Part shown: positions 13,402-56,533 of the stretch, in pieces
How the letters are laid out: each line of letters starts with the position of its first letter
How positions within the stretch are numbered: position 1 is the stretch's first letter
Source: an uncultured Staphylococcaceae bacterium
GTDB lineage: Bacteria; Bacillota_I; Bacilli_A; RFN20; CAG-826
Direction of reading: 5' to 3'
DNA: 63,538 bases
Assembly: GCA_964480275.1 (NCBI GenBank)
Contig: CAYZOC010000001.1
Coordinates: forward strand, 1 to 63,538
Program-made: the position numbers and the translations under genes
The notes under the pieces: model-generated
Seen by the model: only the letters and a program-made list of their open reading frames with translations
The model's database searches: none
What the model was told of the DNA's origin: nothing

Positions 13402-15804
13402 CTAGACTGCCACAATATTGACAATTTTATTCGGCACAACAATAACTTTTTTTACTTTTTTTCCTTGTAGATTTCTAATTATTGCTTCCGCTTCAAAAGC
13501 GATTTTCTCTAGCTCTTCTTTGGCTATATCCCGTTCAACTTCAGCCGTTGCCCGTAACTTTCCATTGATTTGCAGTGCAATTTGAACTGTTTGCTTTTGT
13601 AGATACTTTTCTTCATAGCTTGGCCATGAGGCAAAACTAATTCCCGTATCAAAACCCAAACGTTGGTAAATTTCTTCGCCTAAGTGTGGGGCGATTGGTG
13701 CCAATAGTTTGATAAAATCCACGAGATAAGGGCGATAAATAGACTTAGCCTTATAAACTTCATTAACAAAGATCATCATTTGTGCAATTGCTGTATTAAA
13801 TTTAAGGTTATCAAAGTCTTCAGTGACTTTTTTAACGGTAGAATGGAAAGTGTAGTCTAATTCATGGCTATTTTCGTCACTAATAACACTAGCAAACTGA
13901 TCACTATAAATTCTTTCAACGCGATTTAAGAATCTTAGAGCGCCATCAAGTCCGCTATTCGACCAAGGTAGACTAGCTTCTAGTGGTCCCATAAACATTT
14001 CATATAGACGTAGGGTGTCAACACCATAGTTTTTGATAATGTCGTCAGGATTAACAACATTTCCACGTGACTTAGACATTTTCTCGCCATTTTCACCAAG
14101 AATCATCCCTTGGTGAAATAGTTTTTTAAATGGTTCTTTAGTTGGAACTTCACCAATGTCGTAGAGAAATTTATGCCAAAAGCGTGCGTAGAGTAAGTGT
14201 AAGACCGCATGCTCGGCACCACCAATATATAGATCAACTGGCAACCAATGTTCCATCAGACTCTTATCAGCAATTGCTTGTTCGTTTTTTGGATCCAAAT
14301 AGCGTAAATAGTACCAGCAAGAGCCGGCCCATTGTGGCATTGTATTTGATTCACGCGTCACTTTTTTGCCAGCAATTTCAGTGTTAATCCAATCGGTTGC
14401 GAGTACAAGTGGCGACTCACCAGTCCCACTAGGCTTGTACTGCTCAAGCTCTGGTAAAACTAGTGGTAAGGCCGCGACATCTAGTGCTCTAGTTTCTTGT
14501 GTTTCATCAATAGTGTAAATAGGCATGGGTTCTCCCCAATAACGTTGACGTGAGAACAACCAGTCGCGAAGTTTATAATTGACCTGTTTTTTTCCTAATC
14601 CGATTTGTTCAAGATACTCGATAATTTTAATCTTGGCGTTATATATATCAAGACCATCGATAAATGAAGAATTAATATGAAGTCCATCTTCAACCATCGC
14701 CTTTTCACTAATATCACCGACAAGAACTTGACGAATTTCTAGTTGATGTTTCTTAGCAAATTCATAATCACGTTGATCATGAGCGGGAACCGCCATGACT
14801 GCACCATCACCATAATTTACGAGCACATAATCGGCAATATAAATCGGTACTTGCTCATCATTAACTGGATTGATCGCGTAGGCCCCAGTGAAAACTCCAT
14901 CTTTATCCTTATTTAATTCAGTCCTTTCAAGATCACTCTTATGAGCAATTTTCTTGCGATATTGTTCAACTGCATCTTTATACTTTTCGCCAACAATCCG
15001 ATCGACGAGCGGATGTTCAGGGGCAAGACATGTATAAGTGCAGCCAAAAAGTGTATCAACTCTAGTTGTAAACACATTAAAGCTTTCCTCACTATCCCTA
15101 ACCTTAAAAGTGATTTGTGCTCCTTCGCTCCTTCCAATCCAATTGCGTTGCATTTCTAGTGTTGATGATGGCCAATCAAGTTCCTCTAAACCCTCAAGAA
15201 GTTTTTCGGCATACTTTGTAATTCTAAGTTGCCATTGACGCATTGGTTTGCGAACAACAGGGAATCCACCAACCTCACTAAGCCCGTCAACGACTTCTTC
15301 ATTAGCTAACACTGTTCCTAACTCAGGACAAAAATTTACAGGAATATAATCAACATAGGCCAGATCATGTTCATATAATTTAATGAAGATATATTGTGTC
15401 CATTTGTAATAACTTGAGTCTGCAGTCGATACTTCGCGGTCATAATCATAGCTAAACCCCATCTCTTTGAGTTGGCTTCGGAAGTTCGCAATGTTTTGAT
15501 TAGTAAAAATAGAAGGATGATTATTCGTTCTGATAGCATATTGTTCAGCCGGAAGACCAAAGGCATCATAGCCAATAGGATGAAGAACATTATATCCTTG
15601 AGCACGTTTCATCCGTGCAACAATATCTGTAGCGGTGTATCCTTCAACGTGTCCAACGTGTAAACCCTGGCCAGATGGATAGGGAAACATGTCTAATACA
15701 TAATATTTTGGTCGCGAAAAGTCATAAATATCAGTTTTAAACGTTTGGTTTTCCTCCCAATATTTTTGCCATTTTTTTTCTAAACTAGTGAAATCATATC
15801 CCAT
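13402..15804 (-). CDS. leuS: leucine--tRNA ligase
   Basis: [12 protein letters not shown] (HIGH-type) and KMSKSRGN motifs. I place the start at ATG 15804, because the TTG at 15819 is part of the TTGGAGGAA RBS. Confidence 0.95.
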
Positions 15805-21641: not shown

Positions 21642-21665
21642 TAAAAAAAGACCATAATGGTCTTT
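21642..21665 (-). terminator. terminator at the end of the SMC-like operon
   Basis: Minus strand reads aaagacca-tta-tggtcttt followed by a T-run, 7 nt after the stop of the 1125-aa ORF. Confidence 0.6.
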
Positions 21666-21671: not shown

Positions 21672-24600
21672 TTACGAGACAGTAATACTTTCTTCTTTGG
21701 CGTAAAGCTGGACATGTGAGGCGTTACGACCACGAAGAACTACGAGTGTTTCATCAACAAGTTCGCTTATATCGGCGACTTTGTCGCTCGGCGCGCTAAG
21801 AATTGCTTGGAGCCCAAACTTTCGTAAAAGTTTAATTGATTCCTTGATCCGTCCCCCATCCATTTTTGAAAATGCCTCATCAAAAATAATTATACGAGCA
21901 CTATTGGCCAATTCACCACTTTCATGAACACGATAGAGTTGGGCAAAACTAGCAAGGACGCTAATGTAGAATGGTGTTTGTGTTTCACCACCCGACTTCT
22001 TCTTGAGCATTTTCGAAAGTCGTTGCTCATTACCACCCTTGTCTTTAACAATTAGGTCAAAATCAAGGTAGTTACGATAATCTGTAAACTTATCGACATT
22101 AGCTAGAACTTGTGCGTTTTTATCTCCTTCACCCGCAAGAACAATTTGGGCGAATAGATTTTTCATCACTTCATCATATTTTTGTAAAAATTCACTATCA
22201 TCTTCACCGACCTTTAAGAGTAAATCATCTTTAATCATGTCATAATATGGACGATAAACATTACTTGGACGAACAGTAAAACGGTAAGAGTCATTACCAA
22301 AAGTCGAAGCGCTTAGAGCATGATTCAAGTCTTCAATTTGATCTTCAACTGTTTCAATCGCACTTCTCAACTTACTAATAAAGTCATTTTTAAATTGTTT
22401 GACTGCTTTTTGATATGCGTCATGAATTTTTTGCTCATAAGCAGGAAGTTTAACTTCTCTCATCTCATTTAATTCGTCATCATATATATCATTATCTTGG
22501 TTGTTGGTATCATAACTAAGACGATAATCAAGCACATACTCTTTTCTTAATTTATTAAGTTGCGTGAATATGTTATTAACTAGATATTGGGCATGGCCAA
22601 ACTTGACGCGATAATCAGTATTAATATCAAGTGGAGTTTTACCTTCATCAATAAGTTTTTTGAAATGTGGTTCCGCCTCTTCGTCAACAAAGAAAACGTC
22701 AAATCCTTGAGAAAGTTTTTGTTCTCTTTCTTTAACGATTTGTTGGGCTTCAGGAATTCGATCACGGTTGAGACTATCAATAGTAGTTTTTAATTTGCCT
22801 TTTTCTTCAAATAAGCTAGACCTTTCAACTTCCAAACCTTTAATATCTTCTTCAACTAGAAGAATACGTTTTTGCAGTCCTTCAAGTTGTGAAAGATCAT
22901 GTTTCTTTAATTCGCCTTGGACGTATTCAAGTGTTGTTTTTAACGGGGCAAGATCACGAAGACCAACGATTAAATTATTAGTATTTGTAATCTCGTTAGA
23001 ATTTATAATTTCGAGCCGGTTAGCACTACTTGCCACTTCAAATAGACGTTTATACACTTGTAGGCGTTTATTATAGAAAGCAATTTCTTGCTTTTTTTGA
23101 TTGATTACTGCCTGCTCGACTTCACGGCCAAAGAAGCTAGGCGTATATAGACGTGGATGAAGTTTACCAAGTGAAAAACTACGGTAAATATCACATTCCG
23201 CTGTAATACCATTACCGGAGTTGCGTGCTTCTTGTGGCGTCTTACACTTTTGGAGCCGACCGACAAGAAAATTAGCATAAGCTTCAGCACCAACATGATC
23301 TGTGGCAATTTCTTCGGCTAATGAGTTTTTATCACAGCGGTAATTGCGTTCAATCAACCGATCTTGATCAACAAGCGTCGTTCCATAGTAGCGGTATTCA
23401 CCTAAGAGATTTTTCAAAATATCATAGGCTTCAAGGTAATATTCACCTTCGACAAACATATTAAAGCGTTGATTGCTCATGATTCCTTCAATTGCGTTCC
23501 GCCACTTTTGATCTTTAACATCAATTAAATCGGCAAAGAAATCGACTTTAACGGTACGGCCATGACGATTTGAAAGAACGTTTTGCAGTTCAGTCCTTAT
23601 TTGCACAAGTGATCGTTCATAGGGTTTACCACCATTTTGCAAATCAATTTCCTGTTGTCGTAGTAGGGCTTGTTCATGATCAGCACTTTGAATAATACGT
23701 GTGAGAGTGACACTAAATACGCTAAGTCTTTGCTTGAAAAGGCTAAGTTTTTCCCGCCATTTTTCTAAATCTTCGCTGTTGATTGATTTAATATCATTGA
23801 GTTTAGTATCACGAAGTTCTAATGATTTTTCTAAAACTTCGTAGGCAATTTTATTTAAGTCTTTAAATTCCTGGTCAATATCTTGGAAATAGACATCATC
23901 AATTTCATCAAATAACGAAGTAATTGTTTGACTTGCTTGAATGTAGTCCTCTAAATATCCTTCAAGATTAGAGACCAATTGCATTTCCGTTTGTTGCAAA
24001 AGGGCAATCTTCTCTTTTGTCGTTGCTTCTTGCTCTCTTAATTCATCAGTGATCCGATAAGTGTCACTACTAGCGCTATCTTGAATAAGGCGCATTTTTC
24101 GCCGATTCAATTCCGCAATATTAGCTTCAACTTCGCTGAGATCGACTTCGATTTCCAATAGACGATCTTTAGCTTTTTTTATTTGTGAATAATAAGAATC
24201 TAATCTATTTTTATCGTTTTGATAGGTTGCCTTTTCGATAATATATTCAAATAAGCGCATGTTGTTACGATGATCATCATACATTTTATAGGTGCGATTA
24301 ATTTCTTCAAGTCGTTCAACTCTTCTTTTCATCACTAGCGCTTCTTCTTCAAGCTTTTTATATTGCAATATATTATCTTGCATGGGAACAATATCAATGT
24401 TTTTTTGTGGATCACAAACATATTCTGTAATGAAGGTTGTAATATCAGTAATTGGGGTAAAACTTACTGCTTTTTTAAAGAGCGAAAAATACTTATCTTT
24501 GAGTCCGCCAAATTCGCGTTTTAATGTTTCTTGATATTGGCGGTTGCTATCGAAAAATTTAAACTTGTCTGGATAATTTTCACTAAAAAATTGATTGAGT

Positions 24601-25049
24601 GCCCGATATTCCATCGGAACCTTATCGACAATAAATTCATTGTTTGGAATCGCGTCTTTTAAATGGAAAAAGCGGTGTTCTTCACTACCATCATCAAATA
24701 CATCAAACACACAGCCTAGCGTAAAACTATCTTGATGGATATCATCAAAGAACTCAAGAGCGATGTAACTTGTAAAGCGGCCATTACGCAAGTAATTAAA
24801 GCCCCCGTCAAGCGTATCACCAAGTTCGCCCCGAAGATAACCCTTCAAGGTTCGATTTGATTTGTCCATTGCCGCTTTATTAAAAAAGCGCCCAGTCGTA
24901 TCACCTAAAAGGATTAATTGTAAGGCATCGATTAAGGTCGATTTACCACTAGCGTTAAGCCCCGTTAAAAAGACAATTGGTTCAATATTTATTGTCTCAT
25001 TCCAAAAATAATGCCAATTAATAATCTTAACTTTTTTTAGTGTTCTCAT
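21672..25049 (-). CDS. SMC-like ATPase of the MukB / JetC (Wadjet) / MksB type
   Basis: N-terminal head is VFLTGLNASGKSTLIDALQLILLGD (Walker A). The C-terminal head has SGGETQTPFY (signature motif) and IIIFDEAFSKMD (Walker B/D-loop). About 750 aa of heptad-rich sequence is interrupted by a hinge-like globular segment (WRNAIEGIMSNQRFNMFVEGE...). Overlaps the upstream gene by 4 nt. Confidence 0.8.
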   Translation of the reverse strand: MRTLKKVKIINWHYFWNETINIEPIVFLTGLNASGKSTLIDALQLILLGDTTGRFFNKAAMDKSNRTLKGYLRGELGDTLDGGFNYLRNGRFTSYIALEFFDDIHQDSFTLGCVFDVFDDGSEEHRFFHLKDAIPNNEFIVDKVPMEYRALNQFFSENYPDKFKFFDSNRQYQETLKREFGGLKDKYFSLFKKAVSFTPITDITTFITEYVCDPQKNIDIVPMQDNILQYKKLEEEALVMKRRVERLEEINRTYKMYDDHRNNMRLFEYIIEKATYQNDKNRLDSYYSQIKKAKDRLLEIEVDLSEVEANIAELNRRKMRLIQDSASSDTYRITDELREQEATTKEKIALLQQTEMQLVSNLEGYLEDYIQASQTITSLFDEIDDVYFQDIDQEFKDLNKIAYEVLEKSLELRDTKLNDIKSINSEDLEKWREKLSLFKQRLSVFSVTLTRIIQSADHEQALLRQQEIDLQNGGKPYERSLVQIRTELQNVLSNRHGRTVKVDFFADLIDVKDQKWRNAIEGIMSNQRFNMFVEGEYYLEAYDILKNLLGEYRYYGTTLVDQDRLIERNYRCDKNSLAEEIATDHVGAEAYANFLVGRLQKCKTPQEARNSGNGITAECDIYRSFSLGKLHPRLYTPSFFGREVEQAVINQKKQEIAFYNKRLQVYKRLFEVASSANRLEIINSNEITNTNNLIVGLRDLAPLKTTLEYVQGELKKHDLSQLEGLQKRILLVEEDIKGLEVERSSLFEEKGKLKTTIDSLNRDRIPEAQQIVKEREQKLSQGFDVFFVDEEAEPHFKKLIDEGKTPLDINTDYRVKFGHAQYLVNNIFTQLNKLRKEYVLDYRLSYDTNNQDNDIYDDELNEMREVKLPAYEQKIHDAYQKAVKQFKNDFISKLRSAIETVEDQIEDLNHALSASTFGNDSYRFTVRPSNVYRPYYDMIKDDLLLKVGEDDSEFLQKYDEVMKNLFAQIVLAGEGDKNAQVLANVDKFTDYRNYLDFDLIVKDKGGNEQRLSKMLKKKSGGETQTPFYISVLASFAQLYRVHESGELANSARIIIFDEAFSKMDGGRIKESIKLLRKFGLQAILSAPSDKVADISELVDETLVVLRGRNASHVQLYAKEESITVS

Positions 25050-25687
25050 TCTTCATCCCCCTCAACCGCACTAAGGCTAGTGCCATTTAGCTTATCGAGC
25101 GCTTCGCTTATCGCGACGATTTTTTGTTGATCAACTGCGTACAAAATCGAAGGGAGTAAATAAAATGTCGCATTACCTTCATCATAGTTGCCACTTACTT
25201 TTGCAATAATGTTATGGTCAGCTAATATTTTAAGCGCGCGGCCAACAAGACGACCATTAATTTTACGATTAGGTAGACTTATACCCCGGTCATACATAAG
25301 CTTCAAAACTGAAGTGGTCGTAAGATAAACCGACTCGCTAGATTGACTGGATTCACTTTTCTCGTTTTCATAAATAAGGCGGAGCACAAATAAAATTAGT
25401 GAAACTTCGCGGTCAAACCTGATGCGATTATCTTCAAATTCATTAATAATATAGAAAACTCCGGCTAACAGGTCTTTTTCTAACCTCCATCCACTGTAGG
25501 ATAAGTAGGATTCCATCACATCAAAATGCCGTTCGATAAAACGGAAATCACTATTAATTTTAATTGTCTTCTCCCGGCGATCAAAATAGTCACGGACACA
25601 AAATGAACTCAGGAGTAAACTATTAATAACGCGAGCAAATTGATCTTGATCAGCCCGTGATAGTTTTAAAATATTTTCTTCAAACAT
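25046..25687 (-). CDS. MukE / JetB-like small subunit (assigned from architecture)
   Basis: 213 aa with an acidic C-terminal tail (SAVEGDEE). It sits between the kleisin-sized gene and the SMC-like gene, sharing 1 nt (TAATG) upstream and 4 nt (ATGA) downstream. The N-terminal LSRADQDQFARVINSLLLSSF... resembles JetB/DUF4194-like proteins as I remember them. Confidence 0.5.
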   Translation of the reverse strand: MFEENILKLSRADQDQFARVINSLLLSSFCVRDYFDRREKTIKINSDFRFIERHFDVMESYLSYSGWRLEKDLLAGVFYIINEFEDNRIRFDREVSLILFVLRLIYENEKSESSQSSESVYLTTTSVLKLMYDRGISLPNRKINGRLVGRALKILADHNIIAKVSGNYDEGNATFYLLPSILYAVDQQKIVAISEALDKLNGTSLSAVEGDEE

Positions 25688-27114
25688 TATGCTTCTAATT
25701 CCTTTCTTTTAAAGATTAGTTTTGGTAGTCGGTAACCATAATTAACTATGTGGCCCGGCATTGTTTCAATTTCATAAAAACATTTTTCGTCGTTAGTCTT
25801 GATGGCTGCAAGAATTAGAAGAATAAAGGCATCAAAATCAGGAAGTGGGATATCTTCAATTTTTAATTCATGATCATTAGCAAATGCCATTTCCATAAAA
25901 TCAAACACCCGCTTATCAGTAAATATATTACGCGCTTGATCAAGAAATCCTTCCATCAATTTTTCTCCAAGATCATCATAATCGTAAACCTCGAGTGGTT
26001 CTCCTTCTAATTTGTACTTACGCAAAACAGGAAGTGTAATTGAATCAGGGGTAATATAACCCTGATGAGACATGTTGATTGCTTCACGGAAACCATTAAA
26101 AAGTGGCCTCATGTTATCATCTTTTTGCATCATTTCTCCATAATGCTTAAAGATATTATCAAGATGTCCTTTAATCGTTTTATCACTATTATTAAGATAT
26201 AAAATTTTACTAGCGCTGGCCTTTGTGTATTCTTGATGTTTGCCATCAATTTGTTCGATCATTTCGTCAAGCGTTTCATACATATCACAAATATAATTTA
26301 TCTTTGTAATAATATCTTTCTCGGCCTCAACTTTATTCATACTTCGTGTCCACATAACCGATTGCATAACTAGTTGACTTCTAATTTCTTGATCATGGAG
26401 CCAATTTTGCAAAATTGTAATAATCGGACGTTTGAATTTTGCGACACTATCAAAGGTTTTTAAAGGATGATAGTAGCGGTCACTAACACGAGCCTTATAC
26501 TGATCAAAATAATCAGCAAGAATTGAGTTAGTCGAAAAAACACGGCCTAAACGATTTTGAAAAATTCTAATACTATGGCCAAGAGTTATTAATTCAGTCT
26601 TTAGTTTACGTGTTGATTCATAGGCACGAATTAGTGTTGCATACAAAAATTCATCACGTTCTTCATCTTCGCCCTTTAACTCGGTATACGTGGCGTGGAC
26701 CAGCGAAACATATTCGCCACTATCGTCACTAGTTAATTCATCAAGAAGGGTTAAAAAAGAAATTGTGTAACTAGGAAGAGCTAAATGCTCGTCAAAAGTA
26801 CCGGTGTCCATTTCAATATCGATCCACCCGCATTCTTCTAAGCGCCGAACAACGAACGCCGCTTTAGATGGAAGATCGTCACTTATAAAGTCATCACTTT
26901 CATCCTCAAGGTCTTGTTCTTCCTTTAAATCCAAATTTAAAAGGATGTCGCGATATTTATCACGAAGGGTGCGGATAAAGTCACTTTTTTTAATACTCAA
27001 TTCATCTGTTTGTAAAGAATGATAAAGAACCAATAAGGCTTCAGCATATATGTCTTTATTTTTACTGGCAAGAATTGAAAAGAAATTGTCAGGTAAAATT
27101 GTAAATAAACGCAA
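25687..27114 (-). CDS. MukF / JetA-like kleisin-sized subunit (assigned from architecture)
   Basis: 475 aa and first gene of the operon. TTG start at 27114, 8 nt after AGGAG. Contains an acidic linker, EEQDLEDESDDFISDD. Size and position match MukF/JetA, but I cannot cite a diagnostic motif. Confidence 0.45.
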   Translation of the reverse strand: MRLFTILPDNFFSILASKNKDIYAEALLVLYHSLQTDELSIKKSDFIRTLRDKYRDILLNLDLKEEQDLEDESDDFISDDLPSKAAFVVRRLEECGWIDIEMDTGTFDEHLALPSYTISFLTLLDELTSDDSGEYVSLVHATYTELKGEDEERDEFLYATLIRAYESTRKLKTELITLGHSIRIFQNRLGRVFSTNSILADYFDQYKARVSDRYYHPLKTFDSVAKFKRPIITILQNWLHDQEIRSQLVMQSVMWTRSMNKVEAEKDIITKINYICDMYETLDEMIEQIDGKHQEYTKASASKILYLNNSDKTIKGHLDNIFKHYGEMMQKDDNMRPLFNGFREAINMSHQGYITPDSITLPVLRKYKLEGEPLEVYDYDDLGEKLMEGFLDQARNIFTDKRVFDFMEMAFANDHELKIEDIPLPDFDAFILLILAAIKTNDEKCFYEIETMPGHIVNYGYRLPKLIFKRKELEA

Positions 27115-27141
27115 AATAAAATCTCCTATTTCAATAACTTT

Positions 27142-27170
27142 ATATTAACATATAAATAGCGATAATTGAA
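27142..27170 (-). promoter_or_regulatory. candidate promoter of the SMC-like operon
   Basis: Minus strand reads TTCAAT (27170-27165), 17-nt spacer, TAATAT (27147-27142), with TGt giving an extended -10. Confidence 0.35.
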
Positions 27171-27667
27171 TGCTTAAAACTAAGTTTTTCACTAGTTTTT
27201 TTACTTTAATTTGCTATAATCACTTCATGAAATTAAAACCACGTCTTAGTCGCATCATTCTTCCCTATCTGGTAATCTATCTAGCGCTTGTGATTGCTAG
27301 TTATTTTATTGTTGGTTTTTCTTTTCCCCCAACACTTTCACACTACTTGATCACGGGTTTATGGACCGGTGGTTTTGCAATTTTGACTTTTATGGGTGTT
27401 AAATATAATAGTTACGAAATACATAAAAATCATATTATCCATCACAAGGGTTTTGGCAAAATTACCTATGAATTTGATAGCATTCTTTATATTGATGAAA
27501 CGTATTCAAGAAAACATAAAACACTACTTTTTTACACCGATAAAGGTGATGAAAGATTTCTAGCGTTGGATAAGAAAAACATTTTGTTAGAAAAGACGCT
27601 CGAGCGCTCTAAAAAATGCGTGAGCAAAGCGGAATTCACCAAACGTTTTCCGCGGGTTAAATTATAA
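27170..27667 (+). CDS. small membrane protein with two TM helices plus a bacterial PH-like (YdbS/bPH_2-like) domain
   Basis: Two hydrophobic helices are followed by YEIHKNHIIHHKGFGKITYEFDSILYIDE... An alternative start at ATG 27227 lies 6 nt after TGcTATAAT (27212-27220), which would make the mRNA leaderless. Neither start has a Shine-Dalgarno sequence. Confidence 0.4.
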   Translation: MLKTKFFTSFFTLICYNHFMKLKPRLSRIILPYLVIYLALVIASYFIVGFSFPPTLSHYLITGLWTGGFAILTFMGVKYNSYEIHKNHIIHHKGFGKITYEFDSILYIDETYSRKHKTLLFYTDKGDERFLALDKKNILLEKTLERSKKCVSKAEFTKRFPRVKL

Positions 27668-29337: not shown

Positions 29338-30204
29338 TCAATAGTCCTCTCTTTTACTAGTTAACTCATCACTTATTTTAACATAATTGTCGTAACTTTC
29401 CTGTTTAATAAGTCCTTGGACCACTGCCTGCTTAATTTGACAGTGATGTTCACTCAAATGTAAGCAATCATTAAAGTAACATTTGCCTAAATATGGGGCA
29501 AATCCTGGATAATTTTCCGCTAATTCACTCTTGATCATCGGTAACTCAAAACTTGAAAAGCCAGGAGTGTCGACAATGTAACCTAATTTTGTTTTCAACA
29601 TAATAATTTCTTTAGTTGTGTGGCGGCCACGACCTAAATGCGATGAATACTCACCAACTTCACGATCAAAATCTACAAATAAGTGATTAATTAGCGTTGA
29701 TTTACCAACTCCCGTTTGACCCATTAGTGCTGTCTTTTTATTTTTAATTATTGCCTGGATTGGGGCAAGATCAGCAGGGGCAAACGAAGAAACAATAAAA
29801 TACTTAACGCCAAGAAATAATAGTAAGTCCTCAACTTTTTTAATGGTGGCGCTCGTATCAACTTTATCTCTTTTTGTTAAAACCAAAATAGGCTGAACAT
29901 TAGCAAAATGCGTGTAGGCCAGAAATTTTTCCACGAGTAACAGTGAAAATTCAGGTTCCACTAGTGACATAACGACGAGTACTTGATCGATATTAGCCAC
30001 GGGCGGTCTGATCAAAAAGTTGCTTCGTTGAATTATCTTTGTAATTTGTCGACTGTTACTATCAATTTCAACAAAGTCGCCGACATAAATCGGTGTTTTA
30101 GTGCGAATAAAATCAACAGCAGCTTGAAAAACAATTTTATCTCCATCTACTTCTAATAAATATCGCGTTTTTTGTTTACCAACAACAAGAAATTGTTTAT
30201 TCAT
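29338..30204 (-). CDS. rsgA: ribosome small-subunit-dependent GTPase A
   Basis: Contains LTKRDK, GQTGVGKSTLIN and a C-terminal Zn-knuckle (C..C.H..E..C). I prefer ATG 30204, which overlaps the kinase stop (ATGAATAA). An upstream TTG at 30216 is an alternative start. Confidence 0.9.
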   Translation of the reverse strand: MNKQFLVVGKQKTRYLLEVDGDKIVFQAAVDFIRTKTPIYVGDFVEIDSNSRQITKIIQRSNFLIRPPVANIDQVLVVMSLVEPEFSLLLVEKFLAYTHFANVQPILVLTKRDKVDTSATIKKVEDLLLFLGVKYFIVSSFAPADLAPIQAIIKNKKTALMGQTGVGKSTLINHLFVDFDREVGEYSSHLGRGRHTTKEIIMLKTKLGYIVDTPGFSSFELPMIKSELAENYPGFAPYLGKCYFNDCLHLSEHHCQIKQAVVQGLIKQESYDNYVKISDELTSKREDY

Positions 30205-31087
30205 TAGCAAAGCCAAACCACCGGACCCAAATTGATTCTCTAGGTTTCAATAAGTGACTATTTTCTTTTAAATTATGAAGAGCTTTTTGTAGTTCGTCGA
30301 CAGTTTTATAACGATCTTTAGGACGTTTTTTTACGGCTTTTTGGATTATTTTTTCAAGCGCTTTAGGGAAACTATTAATATATTTTCTCGGGCTAGGTAG
30401 CGGATCTTTAATCTGTTTGATGGCAACATCGACAACTGTTTCACCATCAAAGGGTAGCCGTCCAGTTACAAGTTGATATAAAGTGATGCCAAGTGAATAA
30501 ATATCACTTTGAAAACTTGCCTTTTCCCCTTGACAAATTTCAGGAGCAAGGTAGTGAGCACTACCTAAAATGCTAGAATCTTGCGAAACCTTCCGGGCCG
30601 CAGATTGATTGAATTCTGCAATTCCAAAGTCGCCAAGTTTGACGACTCCGTCACTACTTATATAAATATTACTAGGCTTGATATCGCGATGAATAACATT
30701 ACGACTATGAGCCAACTTAACCGCGAGGCAAAGTTGATCAAGAATATCAATCGCCTCAAGATATGTAAAACGAGTTCGCGAATCTAGTTCCTGGTCAAGT
30801 GTCTTACCGGTGACAAGTTCTGTAACCATATAATGCAGTTCTTGGGTCTTTCCAACGTTTAAAATTGAGACAACATTTTGATTGGATAGTGTTGCCATTG
30901 CCCGTGCTTCGTGTTCAAATCGTGCAAGATTATCACGATCTTTTGCCACTTCAGGCTTTAAAAACTTGATGGCAACTCTTCGCTTAGTAATCGTGTCGAG
31001 AGCTTCATAGACTGCGCCCATTCCACCCTCACCTAAAAGTGCGATAAGGCGGTATCTTTCATCAATTTGATCACCAATACTAATCAC
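30197..31087 (-). CDS. prkC: Hanks-type Ser/Thr protein kinase, catalytic domain only (no TM or PASTA domains)
   Basis: Contains GEGGMGAVYEA, VAIK, HRDIKPSN, DFG and APE. The likely GTG start at 31087 overlaps the PP2C stop (GTGATTAG). The ORF ends about 25 aa after the kinase domain. Confidence 0.85.
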   Translation of the reverse strand: MISIGDQIDERYRLIALLGEGGMGAVYEALDTITKRRVAIKFLKPEVAKDRDNLARFEHEARAMATLSNQNVVSILNVGKTQELHYMVTELVTGKTLDQELDSRTRFTYLEAIDILDQLCLAVKLAHSRNVIHRDIKPSNIYISSDGVVKLGDFGIAEFNQSAARKVSQDSSILGSAHYLAPEICQGEKASFQSDIYSLGITLYQLVTGRLPFDGETVVDVAIKQIKDPLPSPRKYINSFPKALEKIIQKAVKKRPKDRYKTVDELQKALHNLKENSHLLKPRESIWVRWFGFANE

Positions 31088-31829
31088 AACTTGGCTCCCA
31101 AATAGCAACAGCAATATTATCTTCACCACCACGGTTGTTGGCTAATGAAATAAGCATTTGCCCTTTTTGTTCACTCGTATCCTCTGTTGCTAATATTGTT
31201 TCAATATCACGAACTTCAAGTGAATTATATAATCCATCTGAGCATAGAAAAATCTTTTCACTATTATATTTAAACTTCAAAAATTCCATATTACATGAAG
31301 GAATACTACCAAGAGCGTTAAGCAAAACATGACGTTTAGGATGGGTCTTGGCTGCCTCTTGTGTTATTTGTTTAGTATTAACAAGATACTGGACATACGA
31401 TTGATCATCACTTAGTTGAGTTAAATTACCATTATATGAATAAGCTCTTGAATCACCAATATTCAAAACAACGAGCCGATTATTATGAATAAGCGCGGCA
31501 ACTAGTGTTGTTCCCATATTCTTAAGTTCAGGATCGGTCTGACTTTCTTGAAATATTACACGATTAGCCTCTTTAACTGCTCGCCGAAAAAACCTAATGA
31601 TCGATGATGAAAGGAAAAATTTAGGATGATTTTTAAAGCGCTCTACAAGAATATCGACGGCTACTTTAGCAGCATAGTCCCCTTTTTTATAACCACCCAT
31701 TCCATCGGCTACTACAAGGAGGACGTCGTTATTTGCATTAATGATAACACTTGCAACATCTTCGTTATGAACCCGGACAAGCCCTCTATTTGCACTGGCA
31801 AAAAATGTACCATTACGCGTTTTTTTCAT
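31080..31829 (-). CDS. prpC: PP2C-family Ser/Thr phosphatase (Stp/PrpC)
   Basis: Contains RVHNED, VADGMGG, LCSDGL and GGEDNI. I place the start at ATG 31829 (MKKTRNG...), which overlaps the end of rlmN. Confidence 0.9.
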   Translation of the reverse strand: MKKTRNGTFFASANRGLVRVHNEDVASVIINANNDVLLVVADGMGGYKKGDYAAKVAVDILVERFKNHPKFFLSSSIIRFFRRAVKEANRVIFQESQTDPELKNMGTTLVAALIHNNRLVVLNIGDSRAYSYNGNLTQLSDDQSYVQYLVNTKQITQEAAKTHPKRHVLLNALGSIPSCNMEFLKFKYNSEKIFLCSDGLYNSLEVRDIETILATEDTSEQKGQMLISLANNRGGEDNIAVAIWEPSCD

Positions 31830-32865
31830 GTTCTTTTTTGGCACGAAGTTGTCCACAAGCGGCATCAATATCGCTACCAAACTCCTTTCTCAGAGTTGTG
31901 TTAACACCATTTTGTTTCAAATAATCAAAAAAGGCACGTTGATGAGCTGGTCGACTTCTTTTGAAACCATGCTCATCGACAGGATTATAAGGGATTAGAT
32001 TGATATAGGCAAGCATGTCACCAACTAGGTCAATAAGTGCTCTAGCATCTTCAATTCCATCATTAACATCATCAATTAGAATATATTCAAAAGTAACGCG
32101 TTTATTGGTTACTTGTTCATAATAGCGAGCAGCCTCAATTAATTCTTTAATTGGATAGCGGGCATTAATTGGCATAATTAAATTACGCTTCTCATCAGTA
32201 GCGGCATGTAAAGAAATCGCAAGTTTAATTTGGATGCCCTCATGAGCAAATTGGCGAATTCGTGGGACAATGCCACAGGTCGAAACTGTAATATGACGGG
32301 CGCCAATTGCTAAAGCCTTGGGATGATTAATGATTCTAATAAAGTTCATGACATTGTCATAGTTATCGAAAGGCTCACCTATCCCCATGACAACGACGTG
32401 ACTGACACGTGCTCCCTTGTCTTCTTGTTTGAGAATTTGATCGACAACATAAACTTGTCCAAGCATTTCCCCACTTGTTAGGTCGCGTTTTTTCTTTAAT
32501 AATCCTGATGCACAAAACTTGCATCCCATATTACAACCGACTTGGCTGGTCACACAAACAGAATTCCCATAGCGGTAGCGCATTAAGACTGTTTCGACCA
32601 GCGCACCATCAGTCAGTTCAAACAAAATCTTAATTGTTCCATCATTACTATCTTGGCGACTATGTATTCTTGGTAGTTCAAAAACAAACTTCTCTTCTAA
32701 AAGAGCAATCGATTTTTTACTTATATCGGTCATTTCCTGGAAGTTTAAAGTGTTTTTCTCATAAATCCAGGAGTATAGTTGGGTTGCACGGAATTTTTTT
32801 TCACCTAAGCCAACAAGAATTTCGCTTAGCTGTTCATGAGTGTAGTTTAAAATATTTGTTTTCAT
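31813..32865 (-). CDS. rlmN: 23S rRNA/tRNA (adenine-C2)-methyltransferase, radical SAM enzyme RlmN
   Basis: Contains the CNMGCKFC radical-SAM motif, GIGEP and a C-terminal ACGQL. Confidence 0.93.
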   Translation of the reverse strand: MKTNILNYTHEQLSEILVGLGEKKFRATQLYSWIYEKNTLNFQEMTDISKKSIALLEEKFVFELPRIHSRQDSNDGTIKILFELTDGALVETVLMRYRYGNSVCVTSQVGCNMGCKFCASGLLKKKRDLTSGEMLGQVYVVDQILKQEDKGARVSHVVVMGIGEPFDNYDNVMNFIRIINHPKALAIGARHITVSTCGIVPRIRQFAHEGIQIKLAISLHAATDEKRNLIMPINARYPIKELIEAARYYEQVTNKRVTFEYILIDDVNDGIEDARALIDLVGDMLAYINLIPYNPVDEHGFKRSRPAHQRAFFDYLKQNGVNTTLRKEFGSDIDAACGQLRAKKEHEKNA

Positions 32866-34103
32866 TCATTTGTTTTCTTTCTAAAAATAGCGTAATAGGC
32901 GATTGTTTGTTCTTTGTGATATGGCATATATTGCCGCTCATACTCAAGGACAAAGTCAGGATGATTTGCAATAAACGTTTGTGTAACATCAACAGTTTCA
33001 TTTCTAAGTAGTGAACCAACTTTAATAACAAGCAAGCCATTATTTGTGACGCGTTTTTGATATTCATCAAGTAATGACAGGATTTTTTGTTGGTGATCAA
33101 TTGTCATATCAAAGTTAATAAAGAAGTCAGGACGAGCTTTGATTTGTTCTAAATTCGACGAACTCGGCGTCACGTAAACTAAATCAAAATCACTAGGATG
33201 TTCGGCCCGATCGCTAGTAGCAGCAGTTACATTTGTGAGTTCAAACATCTTGATGACGCTATTAACAACGTGATAACGATGTTTATCATTGACTTCCACT
33301 TCGATTTTCAGCTCCGGATTTAGTTTTGCTAAATCAATCACCATCGATGTTTTTTCTTCTTCTTTAATTAAAACCTTTGTTGGATTAAAGGCGAGTAGTT
33401 GCTCACTGATAACTAGATCAGTAATCGGCATTGTATAAAATACACAATCTTTATAAGTTTGTAGCGTCTTAATTGATTGTTTGCCCTCATAAACAAAGGC
33501 ATTCATTAGCGCGATTTGTTTAAAGTCTTTGTTTTCTAAGAAAAACTTTTCGTCAGTTATCTTGTTTAGATTGATTCGACCGTGAATTTGATAAACGTTA
33601 CTAAATTTATCAAGAAATCTTTGTGCTTTATTAAATCCTAAATCTTCAATCAAACGCTCGACAAAATCTAGTGGAAAATTGTAACGAAGCGAGAGTGCAA
33701 ATGAAGTGCGGAAATCTAATTGCTCGGGAAATAGACTTTTGACTGTTCCTTCGATTAATTCTGAGGAGCTAATCTTTTCCTTGTCAACTTCATTTTCAAT
33801 CAGCGTCAACAAGTCCTCTTTTTCCACTTGCAAAATCTTAAGGAAGTATAAGTTACAAAGAAAAACTGTCACAATACTTTGATTGAGTGGTTGAAGTTCA
33901 TCAAGACCATGCTGGACGAGTGTAAAGCGTGTGACTTCATTTTTATGTAGTGCACAACTAACAAAGGTCCGGACTTGTCGTTTTGCTTGATAGTCCAAAT
34001 CTATGTATTCTTTACCACGTAGTTGCTTGGAAAAATCAGCAAAACTAATTGCTCCATGCTTGATGTCGTTAAGCGCCTTTGCGGCCAACAAGATAGTTTT
34101 CAT
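32862..34103 (-). CDS. RsmB/Sun-like protein with degenerate methyltransferase motifs
   Basis: It occupies the rsmB slot upstream of rlmN with a 4-nt overlap. The C-terminal half aligns by eye to the RsmB MTase fold, but DAPCSG reads VTPSSS, YSTCS reads IKVGSL, and the CAAPGGKT SAM loop is absent. Confidence 0.55.
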   Translation of the reverse strand: MKTILLAAKALNDIKHGAISFADFSKQLRGKEYIDLDYQAKRQVRTFVSCALHKNEVTRFTLVQHGLDELQPLNQSIVTVFLCNLYFLKILQVEKEDLLTLIENEVDKEKISSSELIEGTVKSLFPEQLDFRTSFALSLRYNFPLDFVERLIEDLGFNKAQRFLDKFSNVYQIHGRINLNKITDEKFFLENKDFKQIALMNAFVYEGKQSIKTLQTYKDCVFYTMPITDLVISEQLLAFNPTKVLIKEEEKTSMVIDLAKLNPELKIEVEVNDKHRYHVVNSVIKMFELTNVTAATSDRAEHPSDFDLVYVTPSSSNLEQIKARPDFFINFDMTIDHQQKILSLLDEYQKRVTNNGLLVIKVGSLLRNETVDVTQTFIANHPDFVLEYERQYMPYHKEQTIAYYAIFRKKTNE

Positions 34104-34153: not shown

Positions 34154-34642
34154 CTAATTGTATTCATCTTCGTGGTGGTGATGATGATGGTGATCATCTT
34201 CATCTTCTAGATTATGACCACTTTCACGAGCACGTTCTTCAAACTCACCAAAAATATCGCCAGTATATGGGTCGATTTCTTCATCAACTGCCTTTTCATC
34301 ATCAACGATAAACGGTGGATAATCCTTGTTTTCTAACTTAAAGAAACTAGAATCATCAATATAATGAAAAACTAGTCTAATGTTGACAATTTCAACAGTA
34401 AAATAAGAGATAAGTGCGTGTGCAAGATCACTTTCAATTGCCTTATATTTAGGACTAATTGTAACTTCAAGAATTGCCTGCCAACTCGTTTGCTCAACTC
34501 CATCATGGTAGATGTATTCATCAGGAGCAATGACAAGAAATTCCTCATCAATTTCAAAACGATCTTTGACAATAGGAAGATATTTTTTGGAATAAGCACC
34601 GGCGACATATGGGTCGACGCCATAACATTTAATAATAATCAT
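34154..34642 (-). CDS. hypothetical protein with an acidic, His-rich C-terminal tail
   Basis: Start at ATG 34642, 8 nt after AGAGG. The C-terminus reads NLEDEDDHHHHHHHEDEYN. No family could be assigned with confidence. Confidence 0.5.
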   Translation of the reverse strand: MIIIKCYGVDPYVAGAYSKKYLPIVKDRFEIDEEFLVIAPDEYIYHDGVEQTSWQAILEVTISPKYKAIESDLAHALISYFTVEIVNIRLVFHYIDDSSFFKLENKDYPPFIVDDEKAVDEEIDPYTGDIFGEFEERARESGHNLEDEDDHHHHHHHEDEYN

Positions 34643-34666
34643 ATTTGACACCTCTATTTGATTATA

Positions 34667-42853: not shown

Positions 42854-42887
42854 AAAAAAGAAGCCACGTTAATTCGTGGCTTTTTTC
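42854..42887. terminator. bidirectional terminator
   Basis: aagccacg-ttaatt-cgtggctt, flanked by A7 and T6 runs. The stop codon of the convergent 370-aa ORF lies in the loop. Confidence 0.7.
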
Positions 42888-43981
42888 GTTAGGTTTTTGT
42901 AACGTTCAACTTCCTTTTTTTGCATTCTCTTCATTTCAAAATAATAAAGGGATCTGACTTGATCATAATGTTTTTTCTCGTTTTCGCTAAGGAGTGAGAA
43001 ATAGGCGACCCGAAATATGTTTTCTAGACGGAAGAAAGAGTCATAGAGATTAATAATTGTCAACATCGCAAAAAAGTCACGCCGCGAATATATTAAAACG
43101 GGAGAACTATGATTAACTTCGCTCGCCATTTGATACATCTTATTATATTCTTTTAGTCCCGCGATCGTCTCGAGGCCATCACGGAAATTAAATTTTATAT
43201 TATCTTTAGTAATACCTGGAACTTCGCGCAACCAGCCATATTCAATAAAGCGTTTAGTGTCCTTACTTCTTAGATCAAACTCGCGCATTGTAGCTTTGAT
43301 TTCAACGAAAAGTTCATCACACACTTCAGGTGAAAGTACCTTGTTATATGCATCTGCATATTGCATATGACGAAGATAAGAAGCAATAACATTTTCGCCA
43401 TATTTTGTTAGTATCGTCAAAGTCGCCTCAAGTTCATGCATTGTCCGCCACGTTGTAAATGCTTCGGTTTCAAAGCCGTTAACAAGTAGAGTTGTAATTG
43501 CTTTAATGAGACTAAACGACTTATTCAACATATCAATTACTAGGGTTTTTTTAGGTTCTTGTTTTTTAAATAATTCCAGCTTTTTCAATACGAAATTTGT
43601 AAAAACGTTAATTGTCGAAATCGGCGGGAAAAACTGACTCATAAGCCGCTTAGAATCATACTTAAAATGAACATCAGCAGCATACTTATCAACAACACTA
43701 TTAACTAATAAAGCAACAAAGGCATCACTTTCAATATCAACGTCACTACTATCAAGATTAAGCCGATAAAAAAAATCATTAACTAAATATAGTACGAGCC
43801 GAACATTATCAAGATTTTGTAAGGCAAAATTTGCGTTTTGCCCAGCAATAATGTCATAGACCTCAAGAATTTCTAAATAACGCTCAAAAAAGTAGTCACT
43901 ATTGACCTGTTCTTTAAAACCAAGTGAATTTATTAGTTTCGTAAATTGATTTTTATCTAAAGCGATATATTGCCGTTCCAT
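42869..43981 (-). CDS. hypothetical protein, third gene of the addB-addA operon
   Basis: 370-aa ORF with helix-favouring composition and no motif I recognise. It starts 16 nt after the addA stop, with no intervening terminator. Confidence 0.55.
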   Translation of the reverse strand: MERQYIALDKNQFTKLINSLGFKEQVNSDYFFERYLEILEVYDIIAGQNANFALQNLDNVRLVLYLVNDFFYRLNLDSSDVDIESDAFVALLVNSVVDKYAADVHFKYDSKRLMSQFFPPISTINVFTNFVLKKLELFKKQEPKKTLVIDMLNKSFSLIKAITTLLVNGFETEAFTTWRTMHELEATLTILTKYGENVIASYLRHMQYADAYNKVLSPEVCDELFVEIKATMREFDLRSKDTKRFIEYGWLREVPGITKDNIKFNFRDGLETIAGLKEYNKMYQMASEVNHSSPVLIYSRRDFFAMLTIINLYDSFFRLENIFRVAYFSLLSENEKKHYDQVRSLYYFEMKRMQKKEVERYKNLTKKATN

Positions 43982-56290: not shown

Positions 56291-56369
56291 AGAGATAGTT
56301 TAAATGAAAGTTATTATTATCACAATAAATAAAAAAAATATGGCTCATAGAGTCATATTAATTTATGAA

Positions 56370-56443
56370 TGGAGCAGGTGACGGGAATCGAACCCGCGTG
56401 GTCAGCTTGGAAGGCTGAAGTTCTACCATTGAACTACACCTGC
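56370..56443 (-). tRNA. tRNA-Gly (anticodon UCC)
   Basis: The RC folds as a cloverleaf: acceptor gcaggtg/cacctgc, anticodon stem tcagc/gctga, loop cuUCCaa, TPsiC ggttcgatt. CCA is encoded. Confidence 0.93.
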
Positions 56444-56447
56444 ATAA

Positions 56448-56523: not shown

Positions 56524-56533
56524 AGTGAAAATT

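What the first reader, a model, noticed from the sequence alone, without database searches (positions are those of the whole stretch)
21672..27114. MukFEB / Wadjet-JetABC-like SMC operon that ends without a JetD/MksG nuclease gene
Three translationally coupled genes share 1 nt (TAATG) and 4 nt (ATGA) at their junctions. They encode, in order, a 475-aa protein, a 213-aa protein with an acidic tail, and a 1125-aa ATPase. The ATPase has an N-terminal Walker A (GLNASGKST), C-terminal SGGETQ signature and IIIFDEAF Walker B motifs, long heptad arms and a central hinge-like domain. That order and those sizes are those of MukF-MukE-MukB and of Wadjet JetA-JetB-JetC. In described Wadjet and MksBEFG systems a fourth Toprim-type nuclease gene (JetD/MksG) follows the SMC gene and performs plasmid cleavage. 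Here a clean rho-independent terminator (21642-21665) follows the SMC-like gene by 7 nt, and the next gene is glgC. The locus is therefore one of three things: a nuclease-less DNA-loop-extruding complex acting as a condensin, a sensor module using an effector encoded elsewhere, or an uncharacterised variant. The small genome style and reduced repair genes of this organism make an extra 5.4-kb SMC system conspicuous.
Basis: partly seen in the sequence, partly recalled or inferred. Interest (0 to 1): 0.85.

Follow-up and report, generated by a model that had tools for sequence, protein, structure and literature searches.

The report
Wadjet SMC operon without its nuclease
A three-gene DNA-motor complex that normally works with a DNA-cutting partner to destroy plasmids is intact here but has no cutter, and it has been inherited at the same chromosomal spot across a whole group of uncultured small-genome Bacilli, so it probably now folds or manages the cell's own chromosome.

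Summary
Window 21672-27114 (minus strand) holds three overlapping genes that are full-length type I Wadjet JetA, JetB and JetC. PADLOC E-values are 2e-125, 6e-62 and 0. A strong terminator follows, then glgC. No JetD exists anywhere in the 63.5-kb contig.

This is not a one-off or an assembly gap. 76 species-level genomes of uncultured Bacilli carry the same jetABC at the same site, between rpmB and glgC. JetC identity to the window is 43-85%. No JetD-like sequence lies within 10 kb in any of them.

This JetD-less clade is monophyletic (100% bootstrap). Its JetC co-diverges with the neighbouring GlgC (Mantel r=0.83). All three genes are under purifying selection (dN/dS 0.02-0.15). The nearest outgroup systems (Clostridia-type, JetC 40-42%) have jetD abutting jetC, and jetD sits directly after jetC in 70 of 73 JetD-bearing loci.

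One nested sublineage has a clean empty site, so the complex is not essential.

Best reading (about 0.5): a domesticated, nuclease-less Wadjet motor acting as an MksBEF-like chromosomal loop extruder. An unlinked nuclease or non-cleaving plasmid control remain possible. Whole-genome presence of jetD or smc-scpAB could not be tested.

The parts
25687..27114 (-). jetA: kleisin subunit, 475 aa, TTG start
   Evidence: Pfam JetA PF18982 E=9.1e-94, residues 30-471 over profile 2-434/434. PADLOC JetA1 PDLC00449 E=2.1e-125, full length. Homologues align from residue 1 in 68 loci.
27123..27127 (-). Shine-Dalgarno AGGAG, 8 nt upstream of the jetA TTG start
   Evidence: Read directly from the sequence.
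27142..27150 (-). Candidate extended -10 promoter element (TGtTAATAT) in the 55-bp gap between jetA and the divergent 165-aa ORF
   Evidence: Sequence reading only. The consensus scan did not list it. This is inference, not evidence of function.
25046..25687 (-). jetB: KITE subunit, 213 aa, acidic C-terminal tail; shares 1 nt with jetA and 4 nt with jetC
   Evidence: Pfam DUF4194 E=1.2e-16. PADLOC JetB1 PDLC00502 E=5.9e-62, residues 1-201 over profile 1-198/214.
21672..25049 (-). jetC: SMC-family ATPase, 1125 aa
   Evidence: PADLOC JetC1 PDLC00519 E=0, 1114 bits, residues 1-1121 over profile 1-1090/1097. Pfam AAA_29 plus SbcC_Walker_B. A profile of homologues hits E. coli JetC 9qxt/8as8 at about 1e-15. 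The AlphaFold model has head, arm, hinge, arm, head. Its best fold matches are Wadjet JetC and MukB.
24936..24962 (-). JetC Walker A, GLNASGKST (residues 30-38)
   Evidence: G30, N32, G35, K36 and T38 are invariant in 24 homologues.
23130..23552 (-). JetC hinge region, approximately residues 500-640
   Evidence: Globular mixed alpha/beta segment between the two long helical arms in the model. It aligns to the E. coli JetC 427-512 block. Fold matches to SMC hinge domains such as 4rsj and 4rsi.
21978..21995 (-). JetC ABC signature, SGGETQ (residues 1019-1024)
   Evidence: invariant in 24 homologues.
21870..21893 (-). JetC Walker B, IIIFDEAF (residues 1053-1060), followed by D-loop SKMD
   Evidence: F1056, D1057, E1058, A1059, F1060 and D1064 are invariant.
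21643..21665 (-). Rho-independent terminator closing the operon, 6 nt after the jetC stop codon
   Evidence: 8-bp core stem AAAGACCA/TGGTCTTT, loop TTA, T-run; -13.1 kcal/mol, z=-4.5.

Best explanation
This is a domesticated, nuclease-less type I Wadjet complex. jetA, jetB and jetC are co-transcribed and translationally coupled. They should assemble into the usual dimer of SMC motor units (JetA2B4C4), which binds DNA, hydrolyses ATP and extrudes DNA loops. Without JetD nothing cuts the DNA. The motor therefore most likely works on the cell's own chromosome in the manner of MksBEF, contributing non-essentially to compaction, long-range contacts, segregation or replication-linked organisation.

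Shown here: the genes and ATPase motifs are intact; jetD is absent in cis across a monophyletic clade; inheritance is vertical under purifying selection; one sublineage has lost the operon.

Taken from the literature: JetABC alone hydrolyses ATP and extrudes loops; JetD is required for cleavage and for restriction; nuclease-less Mks complexes act on chromosomes.

Inferred: the complex here acts on the chromosome.
For: (1) Full-length JetA1, JetB1 and JetC1 matches with invariant Walker A, signature and Walker B motifs, and an SMC fold.
(2) No JetD in the 63.5-kb contig.
(3) 76 species-level loci of JetC relatives (43-85% identity) have the same order rpe, membrane ORF, rpmB/PH165, jetABC, glgC. 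No JetD-like sequence lies within 10 kb in any of them, which is about 1.5 Mb searched in six frames. Eight further loci, from five GlgC relatives, show the same.
(4) The next-closest systems (L077, L079, L081) have a 422-427-aa JetD (PF09983, E about 1e-24 to 1e-27) abutting jetC. In 73 JetD-bearing metagenome loci jetD follows jetC within 400 bp in 70. An unlinked jetD would therefore be atypical.
(5) The JetD-less clade is monophyletic when rooted on the JetD-bearing outgroup, with 100% bootstrap.
(6) JetC and GlgC pairwise distances co-vary: Mantel r=0.83, 0 of 999 permutations as high. G+C content equals that of the flanks. The neighbourhood is housekeeping genes, not a defence island.
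(7) dN/dS is 0.003-0.15 for jetA, jetB and jetC, similar to glgC. A truly decayed Wadjet looks different: L149 is a jetA'-'jetD deletion fusion.
(8) Literature: JetABC without JetD hydrolyses ATP and extrudes loops, and cleavage needs JetD (PMC10889018). A JetD Toprim mutant abolishes restriction (10.1101/2022.10.04.510915). [quoted passage not shown] M. smegmatis MksB, encoded with MksEF and no nuclease, follows replication forks (PMC11329512).
Against: No functional data exist for this lineage.

The rest of these genomes could not be searched, so an unlinked jetD or another effector is not excluded.

Whether Smc-ScpAB is present is unknown.

The aromatic residue that aligns, with only moderate confidence, to E. 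coli JetC F919, the residue that docks JetD, is kept as F or Y throughout the JetD-less clade. That is compatible with a surviving partner, or with a structural role.

One nested sublineage has lost jetABC cleanly. The function is therefore dispensable, as accessory defence genes are.

Constraint on jetC is not significantly tighter than in JetD-bearing relatives: median dN/dS 0.075 against 0.106, p=0.08.
Confidence: 0.5

Rival explanations
1. It is still an anti-plasmid Wadjet sensor, and its nuclease is encoded elsewhere in the genome. The nuclease could be a relocated JetD or a different effector recruited in trans.
For: The whole genome could not be searched. The position aligned to the JetD-docking F919 of E. 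coli JetC stays aromatic (F62/Y11) in the clade. Purifying selection is as expected for any working system.
Against: jetD is adjacent to jetC in 70 of 73 JetD-bearing loci. Of the three exceptions, two have a 1.9-kb insert between jetC and jetD, and the third, L149, is a jetA'-'jetD deletion remnant. None is a relocation. No JetD relative from the metagenome scan sat in this lineage's context or next to a JetC more than 40% identical to the window's. A stable split kept through 76 or more species without any cis copy would be unusual for a defence system. JetABC and JetD of different Wadjet types are not interchangeable and need specific contacts (10.1101/2025.03.10.642339). The F/Y position is also conserved as part of a generally conserved head, so it does not discriminate.
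Confidence: 0.2
2. It controls plasmids or other small circular DNA without cutting. JetABC fully extrudes small circles and stalls on them, which compacts, sequesters or blocks replication or segregation of the element.
For: JetABC alone loads on plasmids, extrudes and stalls at the residual segment (PMC10889018; 10.1101/2023.11.03.565488). Liu et al. raise passive inactivation as a conceivable alternative to cleavage (10.1101/2022.10.04.510915). Dispensability in one sublineage fits an accessory role.
Against: In the tested systems, nuclease-dead JetD abolishes restriction, so JetABC alone was not sufficient (10.1101/2022.10.04.510915; PMC10889018). Vertical inheritance at a fixed housekeeping site, with divergence tracking glgC, is unlike typical defence-gene dynamics.
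Confidence: 0.2
3. It is a decaying remnant of a Wadjet system that lost jetD and is on its way out.
For: jetD is missing, and one sublineage has lost the whole operon.
Against: All three ORFs are intact in more than 70 species. Catalytic motifs are invariant. dN/dS is 0.003-0.15 at dS up to about 1.5. Profile coverage is full length. A genuine remnant, L149, looks quite different.
Confidence: 0.02

Closest known systems
Type I Wadjet / JetABCD (E. coli GF4-3, P. aeruginosa PA14, Bacillus cereus Q1; also called MksBEFG or EptABCD)
   Same: Same three families in the same order (kleisin JetA, KITE JetB, SMC JetC), with full-length profile matches. ATPase motifs and the head-arm-hinge layout match. 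The operon is tightly coupled.
   Different: There is no JetD Toprim nuclease in cis, which is the subunit that performs plasmid cleavage. The locus is chromosomal, syntenic and vertically inherited among housekeeping genes. Sequence is distant from the solved examples: about 12-18% identity in fold alignments, and profile E about 1e-15.
MksBEF of Pseudomonas aeruginosa (nuclease-less, acts on the chromosome alongside Smc-ScpAB)
   Same: Three-gene kleisin/KITE/SMC operon with no nuclease. It is fixed across a whole taxon and non-essential. [quoted passage not shown]
   Different: Pseudomonas MksBEF is reported to show no sequence similarity to MksBEFG (10.1101/2020.05.18.101659). The proteins here still score as canonical type I JetA1, JetB1 and JetC1, and their nearest relatives still carry JetD. 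This looks like a much more recent or less diverged loss. The host is Bacillota, not Proteobacteria. A chromosomal role here is untested.
MksB (with MksEF) of Mycolicibacterium smegmatis
   Same: A nuclease-less Mks operon in a Gram-positive bacterium, with a chromosome- and replication-associated role (PMC11329512).
   Different: M. smegmatis also has a separate nuclease-bearing EptABCD. No second system was seen here, although only one contig per genome was visible. The phylum differs.
MukBEF of Enterobacteria
   Same: Same architecture class (dimerising kleisin, KITE dimer, SMC with a small hinge). MukB structures are among the best fold matches. MukBEF is hypothesised to descend from a JetABCD-like ancestor.
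   Different: Pfam MukB_N scores only 19 bits, below its threshold of 23, and there are no MukF or MukE matches. MukBEF replaced Smc-ScpAB and is near-essential. Here one sublineage lacks the operon.
SbcCD / Rad50-Mre11
   Same: Shares the SbcC_Walker_B and AAA_23/AAA_29 head domains.
   Different: This protein has a hinge, not a zinc hook. There is no SbcD/Mre11 partner. Kleisin and KITE partners are present instead.

Membership tests
Wadjet type I (JetABCD) | JetA kleisin (PF18982 / PADLOC JetA1) | tested here: met
   E=9.1e-94 (Pfam) and 2.1e-125 (PADLOC), full length.
Wadjet type I (JetABCD) | JetB KITE (DUF4194 / PADLOC JetB1) | tested here: met
   E=1.2e-16 (Pfam) and 5.9e-62 (PADLOC).
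Wadjet type I (JetABCD) | JetC SMC ATPase with intact Walker A, signature and Walker B motifs and a hinge | tested here: met
   PADLOC JetC1 E=0, 1114 bits. Motifs invariant. Model and fold matches to JetC and MukB.
Wadjet type I (JetABCD) | JetD Toprim nuclease encoded in the operon. PADLOC's definition requires all four genes (PMC9252829). | tested here: not met
   A terminator follows jetC, then glgC after 88 bp. There is no JetD in the 63.5-kb contig or within 10 kb in 76 related loci. JetD is present in outgroup loci L077, L079 and L081.
Wadjet type I (JetABCD) | JetD-tethering elements on JetABC: the JetC larynx phenylalanine (E. coli F919) and a JetB short motif (IFDR at the N-terminus in Proteobacteria) | tested here: inconclusive
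   The aligned position is F or Y in the JetD-less clade and F in JetD-bearing relatives. No IFDR is present in either group. A C-terminal xIRG[D/E] tail is found only in the closest JetD-bearing subfamily and is also absent from more distant JetD-bearing systems.
Wadjet type I (JetABCD) | Restriction of small circular plasmids | not testable with these tools
   Needs transformation or plasmid-stability assays.
Nuclease-less MksBEF-type bacterial condensin | Kleisin-KITE-SMC operon of the Muk/Mks/Jet superfamily with no associated nuclease gene | tested here: met
   The state is conserved across a monophyletic clade.
Nuclease-less MksBEF-type bacterial condensin | Stable vertical inheritance within a taxon, as in Pseudomonas, in contrast to patchy defence-island distribution | tested here: met
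   Fixed site between rpmB and glgC. Mantel r=0.83 against GlgC. One secondary loss.
Nuclease-less MksBEF-type bacterial condensin | Effect on chromosome organisation or segregation | not testable with these tools
   Needs Hi-C, microscopy or genetics.
Nuclease-less MksBEF-type bacterial condensin | Co-existence with, or replacement of, Smc-ScpAB | not testable with these tools
   No smc, scpA or scpB in the window or in the fetched flanks. The rest of the genomes could not be read.
MukBEF | MukF, MukE and MukB family membership | tested here: not met
   MukB_N scores 19.0 bits, below the 23-bit cut-off. There are no MukF or MukE hits.
SbcCD / Rad50-type repair ATPase | Zinc-hook coiled-coil apex and an SbcD/Mre11 nuclease partner | tested here: not met
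   The middle of the protein is a globular hinge matching SMC hinges. The partners are JetA and JetB.

The most novel reading that the evidence does not exclude
In this group of small-genome Bacilli, a Wadjet complex that recently lost its nuclease has become a principal chromosome-folding SMC, possibly substituting for Smc-ScpAB. That would be an independent, still sequence-recognisable replay of the proposed JetABCD to MksBEF/MukBEF transition from immunity to chromosome maintenance.
Probability: 0.12. Interest if true: 0.85.

Novelty: new variant of a known kind. Interest (0 to 1): 0.55.

Why it matters
SMC researchers have proposed that MukBEF and MksBEF descend from a Wadjet-like defence system that lost its nuclease. 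The known nuclease-less complexes are so diverged that the transition cannot be examined directly.

Here the three proteins are still unmistakably type I Wadjet, and their nearest relatives still carry JetD. Even so, the nuclease-less state has been inherited vertically under selection through many species at one chromosomal site. Related lineages with a natural clean deletion serve as built-in controls.

That makes two open questions testable. Does a Wadjet motor act on the host chromosome? What changes when an immune SMC becomes a housekeeping one?

There is also a practical point. Defence-annotation tools that require JetABCD will either miss these loci or report them as 'Wadjet other'. They should not be counted as plasmid-defence systems without evidence.

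Tried and rejected
(1) JetB C-terminal 'xIRG[D/E]' tail as a marker of JetD loss. It was present in 4 of 4 outgroup loci and 0 of 72 clade members. In 57 JetD-bearing metagenome loci it occurs only in the subfamily closest to L077, and more distant JetD-bearing systems lack it. It is therefore not diagnostic.

(2) JetC 'larynx' phenylalanine (E. coli F919). The aligned residue F954 is conserved as F or Y in both JetD-less and JetD-bearing groups. It does not discriminate, and the alignment confidence is only moderate.

(3) Tighter constraint after JetD loss. A first look suggested 2-3 times lower dN/dS. With matched criteria and disjoint pairs the medians are 0.075 and 0.106, p=0.08. I withdrew the claim.

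(4) Canonical Smc. A phmmer search of all fetched flanks with a B. subtilis Smc sequence recalled from memory found nothing. This says nothing about the whole genomes.

(5) 'Orphan' JetD loci. In L082 and L083, two ORFs (about 1.9 kb) sit between jetC and jetD. L149 is a jetA'-'jetD deletion fusion. Neither shows that jetD relocates.

(6) Replication origin near 56 kb. GC skew changes sign there, but there is no DnaA-box enrichment (20 observed against 21 expected) and no parS.

(7) The divergent 165-aa ORF upstream of jetA as a fourth component. It persists in lineages that lost jetABC, so it is not part of the system.

(8) Single-sequence PDB searches for JetA and JetB found nothing. Only the JetC profile reached solved JetC structures.

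(9) The SspA/DndA PADLOC hit at 1493-2629 is the housekeeping cysteine desulfurase next to thiI.
Full report
OBSERVATION. On the minus strand of the window lie three ORFs at 25687-27114 (475 aa, TTG start preceded by AGGAG), 25046-25687 (213 aa) and 21672-25049 (1125 aa). They overlap by 1 nt and 4 nt. Six nucleotides after the last stop codon comes a hairpin (21647-21665) with a T-run. It folds at -13.1 kcal/mol, z=-4.5, and none of 200 shuffles is as stable. glgC starts 88 bp after the stop codon.

WHAT THE PROTEINS ARE. Pfam gives JetA (PF18982, E=9e-94), DUF4194/JetB (1e-16) and AAA_29 plus SbcC_Walker_B for the ATPase. MukB_N is below threshold, and there are no MukF or MukE hits. PADLOC gives JetA1 (2e-125), JetB1 (6e-62) and JetC1 (E=0, 1114 bits, residues 1-1121 on profile 1-1090 of 1097). 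NCBIfam has no model for them. Walker A, the SGGETQ signature, Walker B and the D-loop are invariant in an alignment of 24 homologues at 50-100% identity. A profile of these homologues reaches the solved E. coli and P. aeruginosa JetC chains and, more weakly, MukB. An AlphaFold model (mean pLDDT 75) shows head, arm, hinge, arm, head. Its best fold matches are Wadjet JetC, MukB, Smc5/6 and condensin chains. The locus is a complete type I Wadjet JetABC.

IS JetD REALLY MISSING? The window is a whole 63,538-bp MAG contig. I obtained three genuine JetD proteins (422-427 aa, JetD_C E about 1e-24 to 1e-27) from the most distant of 80 related genome loci. I searched them by tblastn and as an HMM against six-frame translations of the window and all loci. 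Nothing scored better than E about 0.15, and about 7 in the window. PADLOC and Pfam scans of the other window ORFs found only housekeeping functions: gmk, priA, rlmN, a PP2C phosphatase and a kinase, rsgA, rpe, glgCDA, leuS, coaX, ezrA, thiI, iscS-like, tyrS, enolase and others. jetD is therefore absent from this contig.

NOT A ONE-OFF. A scan of one genome per species with the JetC alignment returned 80 loci. In 76 of them the proteins are 43-85% identical to the window's. The record titles name uncultured Bacilli: 'Coprobacillus sp. CAG:826', Candidatus Onthovivens, 'Mollicutes', 'Tenericutes' and 'Erysipelotrichaceae' MAGs. From memory, GTDB places several of these in order RFN20; I did not test this. 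In these loci the gene order rpe, membrane ORF, rpmB, 165-aa ORF, jetA, jetB, jetC, glgC is conserved. jetC is followed by glgC directly, by one roughly 300-aa membrane ORF (weak, sub-threshold DUF3137 match), by two small ORFs with no family match, by a diverged glgC, or by leuS. It is never followed by jetD. About 72 of the 76 loci have enough downstream sequence to judge. Eight more loci, reached through GlgC homologues, show the same pattern.

In contrast, the four least similar loci (JetC 40-42%, Clostridia-type) carry jetD abutting jetC in three cases. In the fourth, L080, an inserted phosphoesterase ORF follows jetC and the contig then ends. A metagenome scan with the JetD alignment gave 80 JetD loci. 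Of the 73 with enough upstream sequence, 70 have the jetC 3' end within 400 bp of jetD. Two have a 1.9-kb insert. One (L149) is a jetA'-'jetD deletion remnant. None of the full-length JetC proteins in these loci is more than 40% identical to the window's, and none lies in the rpe/glgC context.

EVOLUTIONARY PATTERN. A JetC tree rooted on the JetD-bearing outgroup gives (outgroup, (BASAL, (WIN, LOW))). Both the outgroup split and the outgroup-plus-BASAL split have 100% bootstrap, so the JetD-less state arose once. JetC and GlgC pairwise distances are strongly correlated: Mantel r=0.83, with 0 of 999 permutations as high. Identity to the window gives the same picture (Pearson 0.89). G+C content of the operon equals that of its flanks. 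This is vertical inheritance. dN/dS (Nei-Gojobori) is 0.012-0.136 for jetA, 0.003-0.144 for jetB and 0.017-0.151 for jetC at dS 0.2-1.5, similar to glgC, so the genes are maintained by selection.

I tested whether constraint is tighter than in JetD-bearing relatives. With matched, disjoint pairs the medians are 0.075 (n=16) and 0.106 (n=6), p=0.08, which is not significant.

Three GlgC relatives (L168/L169, L170, L173) have the same flanking order but an empty site, where rpmB (with or without the 165-aa ORF) runs straight into glgC. In a GlgC+GlgA tree these lineages form one clade (78% bootstrap) that is sister to LOW (70%) and nested among jetABC-bearing lineages (66%). Given the JetC rooting, this means a secondary, clean loss. 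The complex is therefore useful but dispensable.

MECHANISM. Published single-molecule work shows that JetABC without JetD hydrolyses ATP and extrudes loops as a kleisin-bridged dimer, and that cleavage needs JetD (PMC10889018). Nuclease-dead JetD abolishes restriction in B. subtilis (10.1101/2022.10.04.510915). Nuclease-less relatives act on chromosomes. P. aeruginosa MksBEF promotes long-range contacts and backs up segregation (10.1101/2020.05.18.101659). M. smegmatis MksB tracks replication forks (PMC11329512). [quoted passage not shown]

My best explanation (confidence about 0.5) is that this operon is such a derivative, caught at an early and still sequence-recognisable stage: a loop-extruding JetA2B4C4 motor working on the chromosome. 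The genes, motifs, absence of jetD in cis, monophyly, vertical descent and selection are shown here. The motor activity is taken from characterised homologues. The chromosomal target is inferred.

RIVALS. (a) A trans-encoded JetD or other effector (0.2). I could not read the rest of these genomes. The residue aligned to the JetD-docking F919 of E. coli JetC (10.1101/2023.11.03.565488) is retained as F or Y. However, relocation is not seen among 73 JetD-bearing loci, and that residue is equally conserved in both groups. (b) Non-cleaving plasmid control by extrusion and stalling (0.2). This is conceivable, but JetABC alone did not restrict plasmids in the tested systems. (c) A decaying remnant (0.02). 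The selection data refute this.

COMPARISON AND NOVELTY. As a family, this is type I Wadjet minus its defining effector. PADLOC's own rule requires all four genes and files three-gene cases as 'Wadjet other' (PMC9252829). As a way of working, it is closest to MksBEF. It differs in that Pseudomonas MksBEF is reported to have no detectable similarity to MksBEFG, whereas these proteins are canonical JetA1, JetB1 and JetC1 with JetD-bearing sisters. I found no paper describing a JetD-less type I Wadjet fixed in a Bacillota lineage. I rate it a new variant of a known kind, of moderate interest. It would be high interest if these genomes prove to lack Smc-ScpAB or if chromosome-level activity is shown.

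LIMITS. The trees are neighbour-joining on one or two proteins, with only moderate support for the position of the empty-site clade. dN/dS pairs are few. Taxon names come from the record titles.

Noticed in passing
window 27170-27667 (+): A 165-aa predicted membrane protein with no Pfam match is transcribed divergently from jetA. It is conserved next to jetA in most relatives (25-60% identity) and is still present in lineages that lost jetABC (L170, L173). It is therefore a neighbour, not a component.
   Followed up: partly
L004:13441-14307, L008:13386-14240, L017:13415-14365, L172:8096-8998 and about 20 other loci: A 285-316-aa membrane ORF (weak, sub-threshold Pfam DUF3137 match for L017; DUF3137 listed for L172) sits between jetC and glgC in many clade members. 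The window lacks it. Its function is unknown.
   Followed up: partly
L065:13424-13873 and 13984-14937; likewise L068-L076: The earliest-branching JetD-less group has two extra ORFs (about 150 aa and about 312 aa) with no Pfam match between jetC and glgC. They are possible lineage-specific partners and were not examined further.
   Followed up: no
L080:11783-12436; L083:489-2176; L082: In one JetD-bearing Clostridia-type subfamily, two ORFs are inserted between jetC and jetD, spanning about 1.9 kb. They are about 217 aa and about 340 aa. The 217-aa ORF in L080, which runs into the contig end, matches calcineurin-like phosphoesterase (Metallophos). This may be a five- or six-gene Wadjet variant.
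   Followed up: partly
L149:9023-10723: A degraded Wadjet locus. The first ~356 residues of JetA run into the last ~250 residues of JetD, and jetB and jetC are deleted.
   Followed up: partly
JetB C-termini in L077, L079-L081, L084-L115: A conserved short tail motif, [VIL][IL]RG[D/E], follows an acidic linker in one JetD-bearing JetB subfamily. It may be analogous to the N-terminal IFDR JetD-binding motif of proteobacterial JetB. It is absent from the JetD-less clade and also from more distant JetD-bearing systems.
   Followed up: partly
window ~56000-56700: GC skew changes from negative to positive exactly where gene orientation switches from the minus strand to the plus strand. There is no DnaA-box enrichment and no parS, so an origin or terminus cannot be called.
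   Followed up: partly
window 42869-43981 (-), next to 43998-49404 (-): A DUF5677 protein (370 aa) lies immediately downstream of an addA-like UvrD helicase (1023 aa) and an addB-like PD-(D/E)XK nuclease (781 aa). Their relationship is unknown.
   Followed up: no
window 32862-34103 (-) and 34154-34651 (-): Two conserved ORFs (413 aa and 165 aa) between priA and rlmN have no Pfam match. In relatives the larger one shows only weak RsmB-F methyltransferase similarity. They occupy the position of the fmt/def/rsmB genes of Bacillus.
   Followed up: no
window 30197-31132 (-): The Ser/Thr kinase paired with the PP2C phosphatase is only 311 aa. It has a kinase domain and no PASTA or extracellular part, unlike PrkC of Bacillus.
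   Followed up: no
window 1493-2629 (-): This ORF gives strong PADLOC hits to SspA/DndA (E about 1e-98 and 1e-96). It is a class-V aminotransferase (cysteine desulfurase) adjacent to thiI, so it is a housekeeping gene and a likely false positive for DNA-phosphorothioation defence.
   Followed up: yes
L171:5009-8968: In one relative, an amino-acid ABC transporter cassette and a 342-aa ORF are inserted between jetC and glgC. The jetC-glgC junction tolerates insertions.
   Followed up: no
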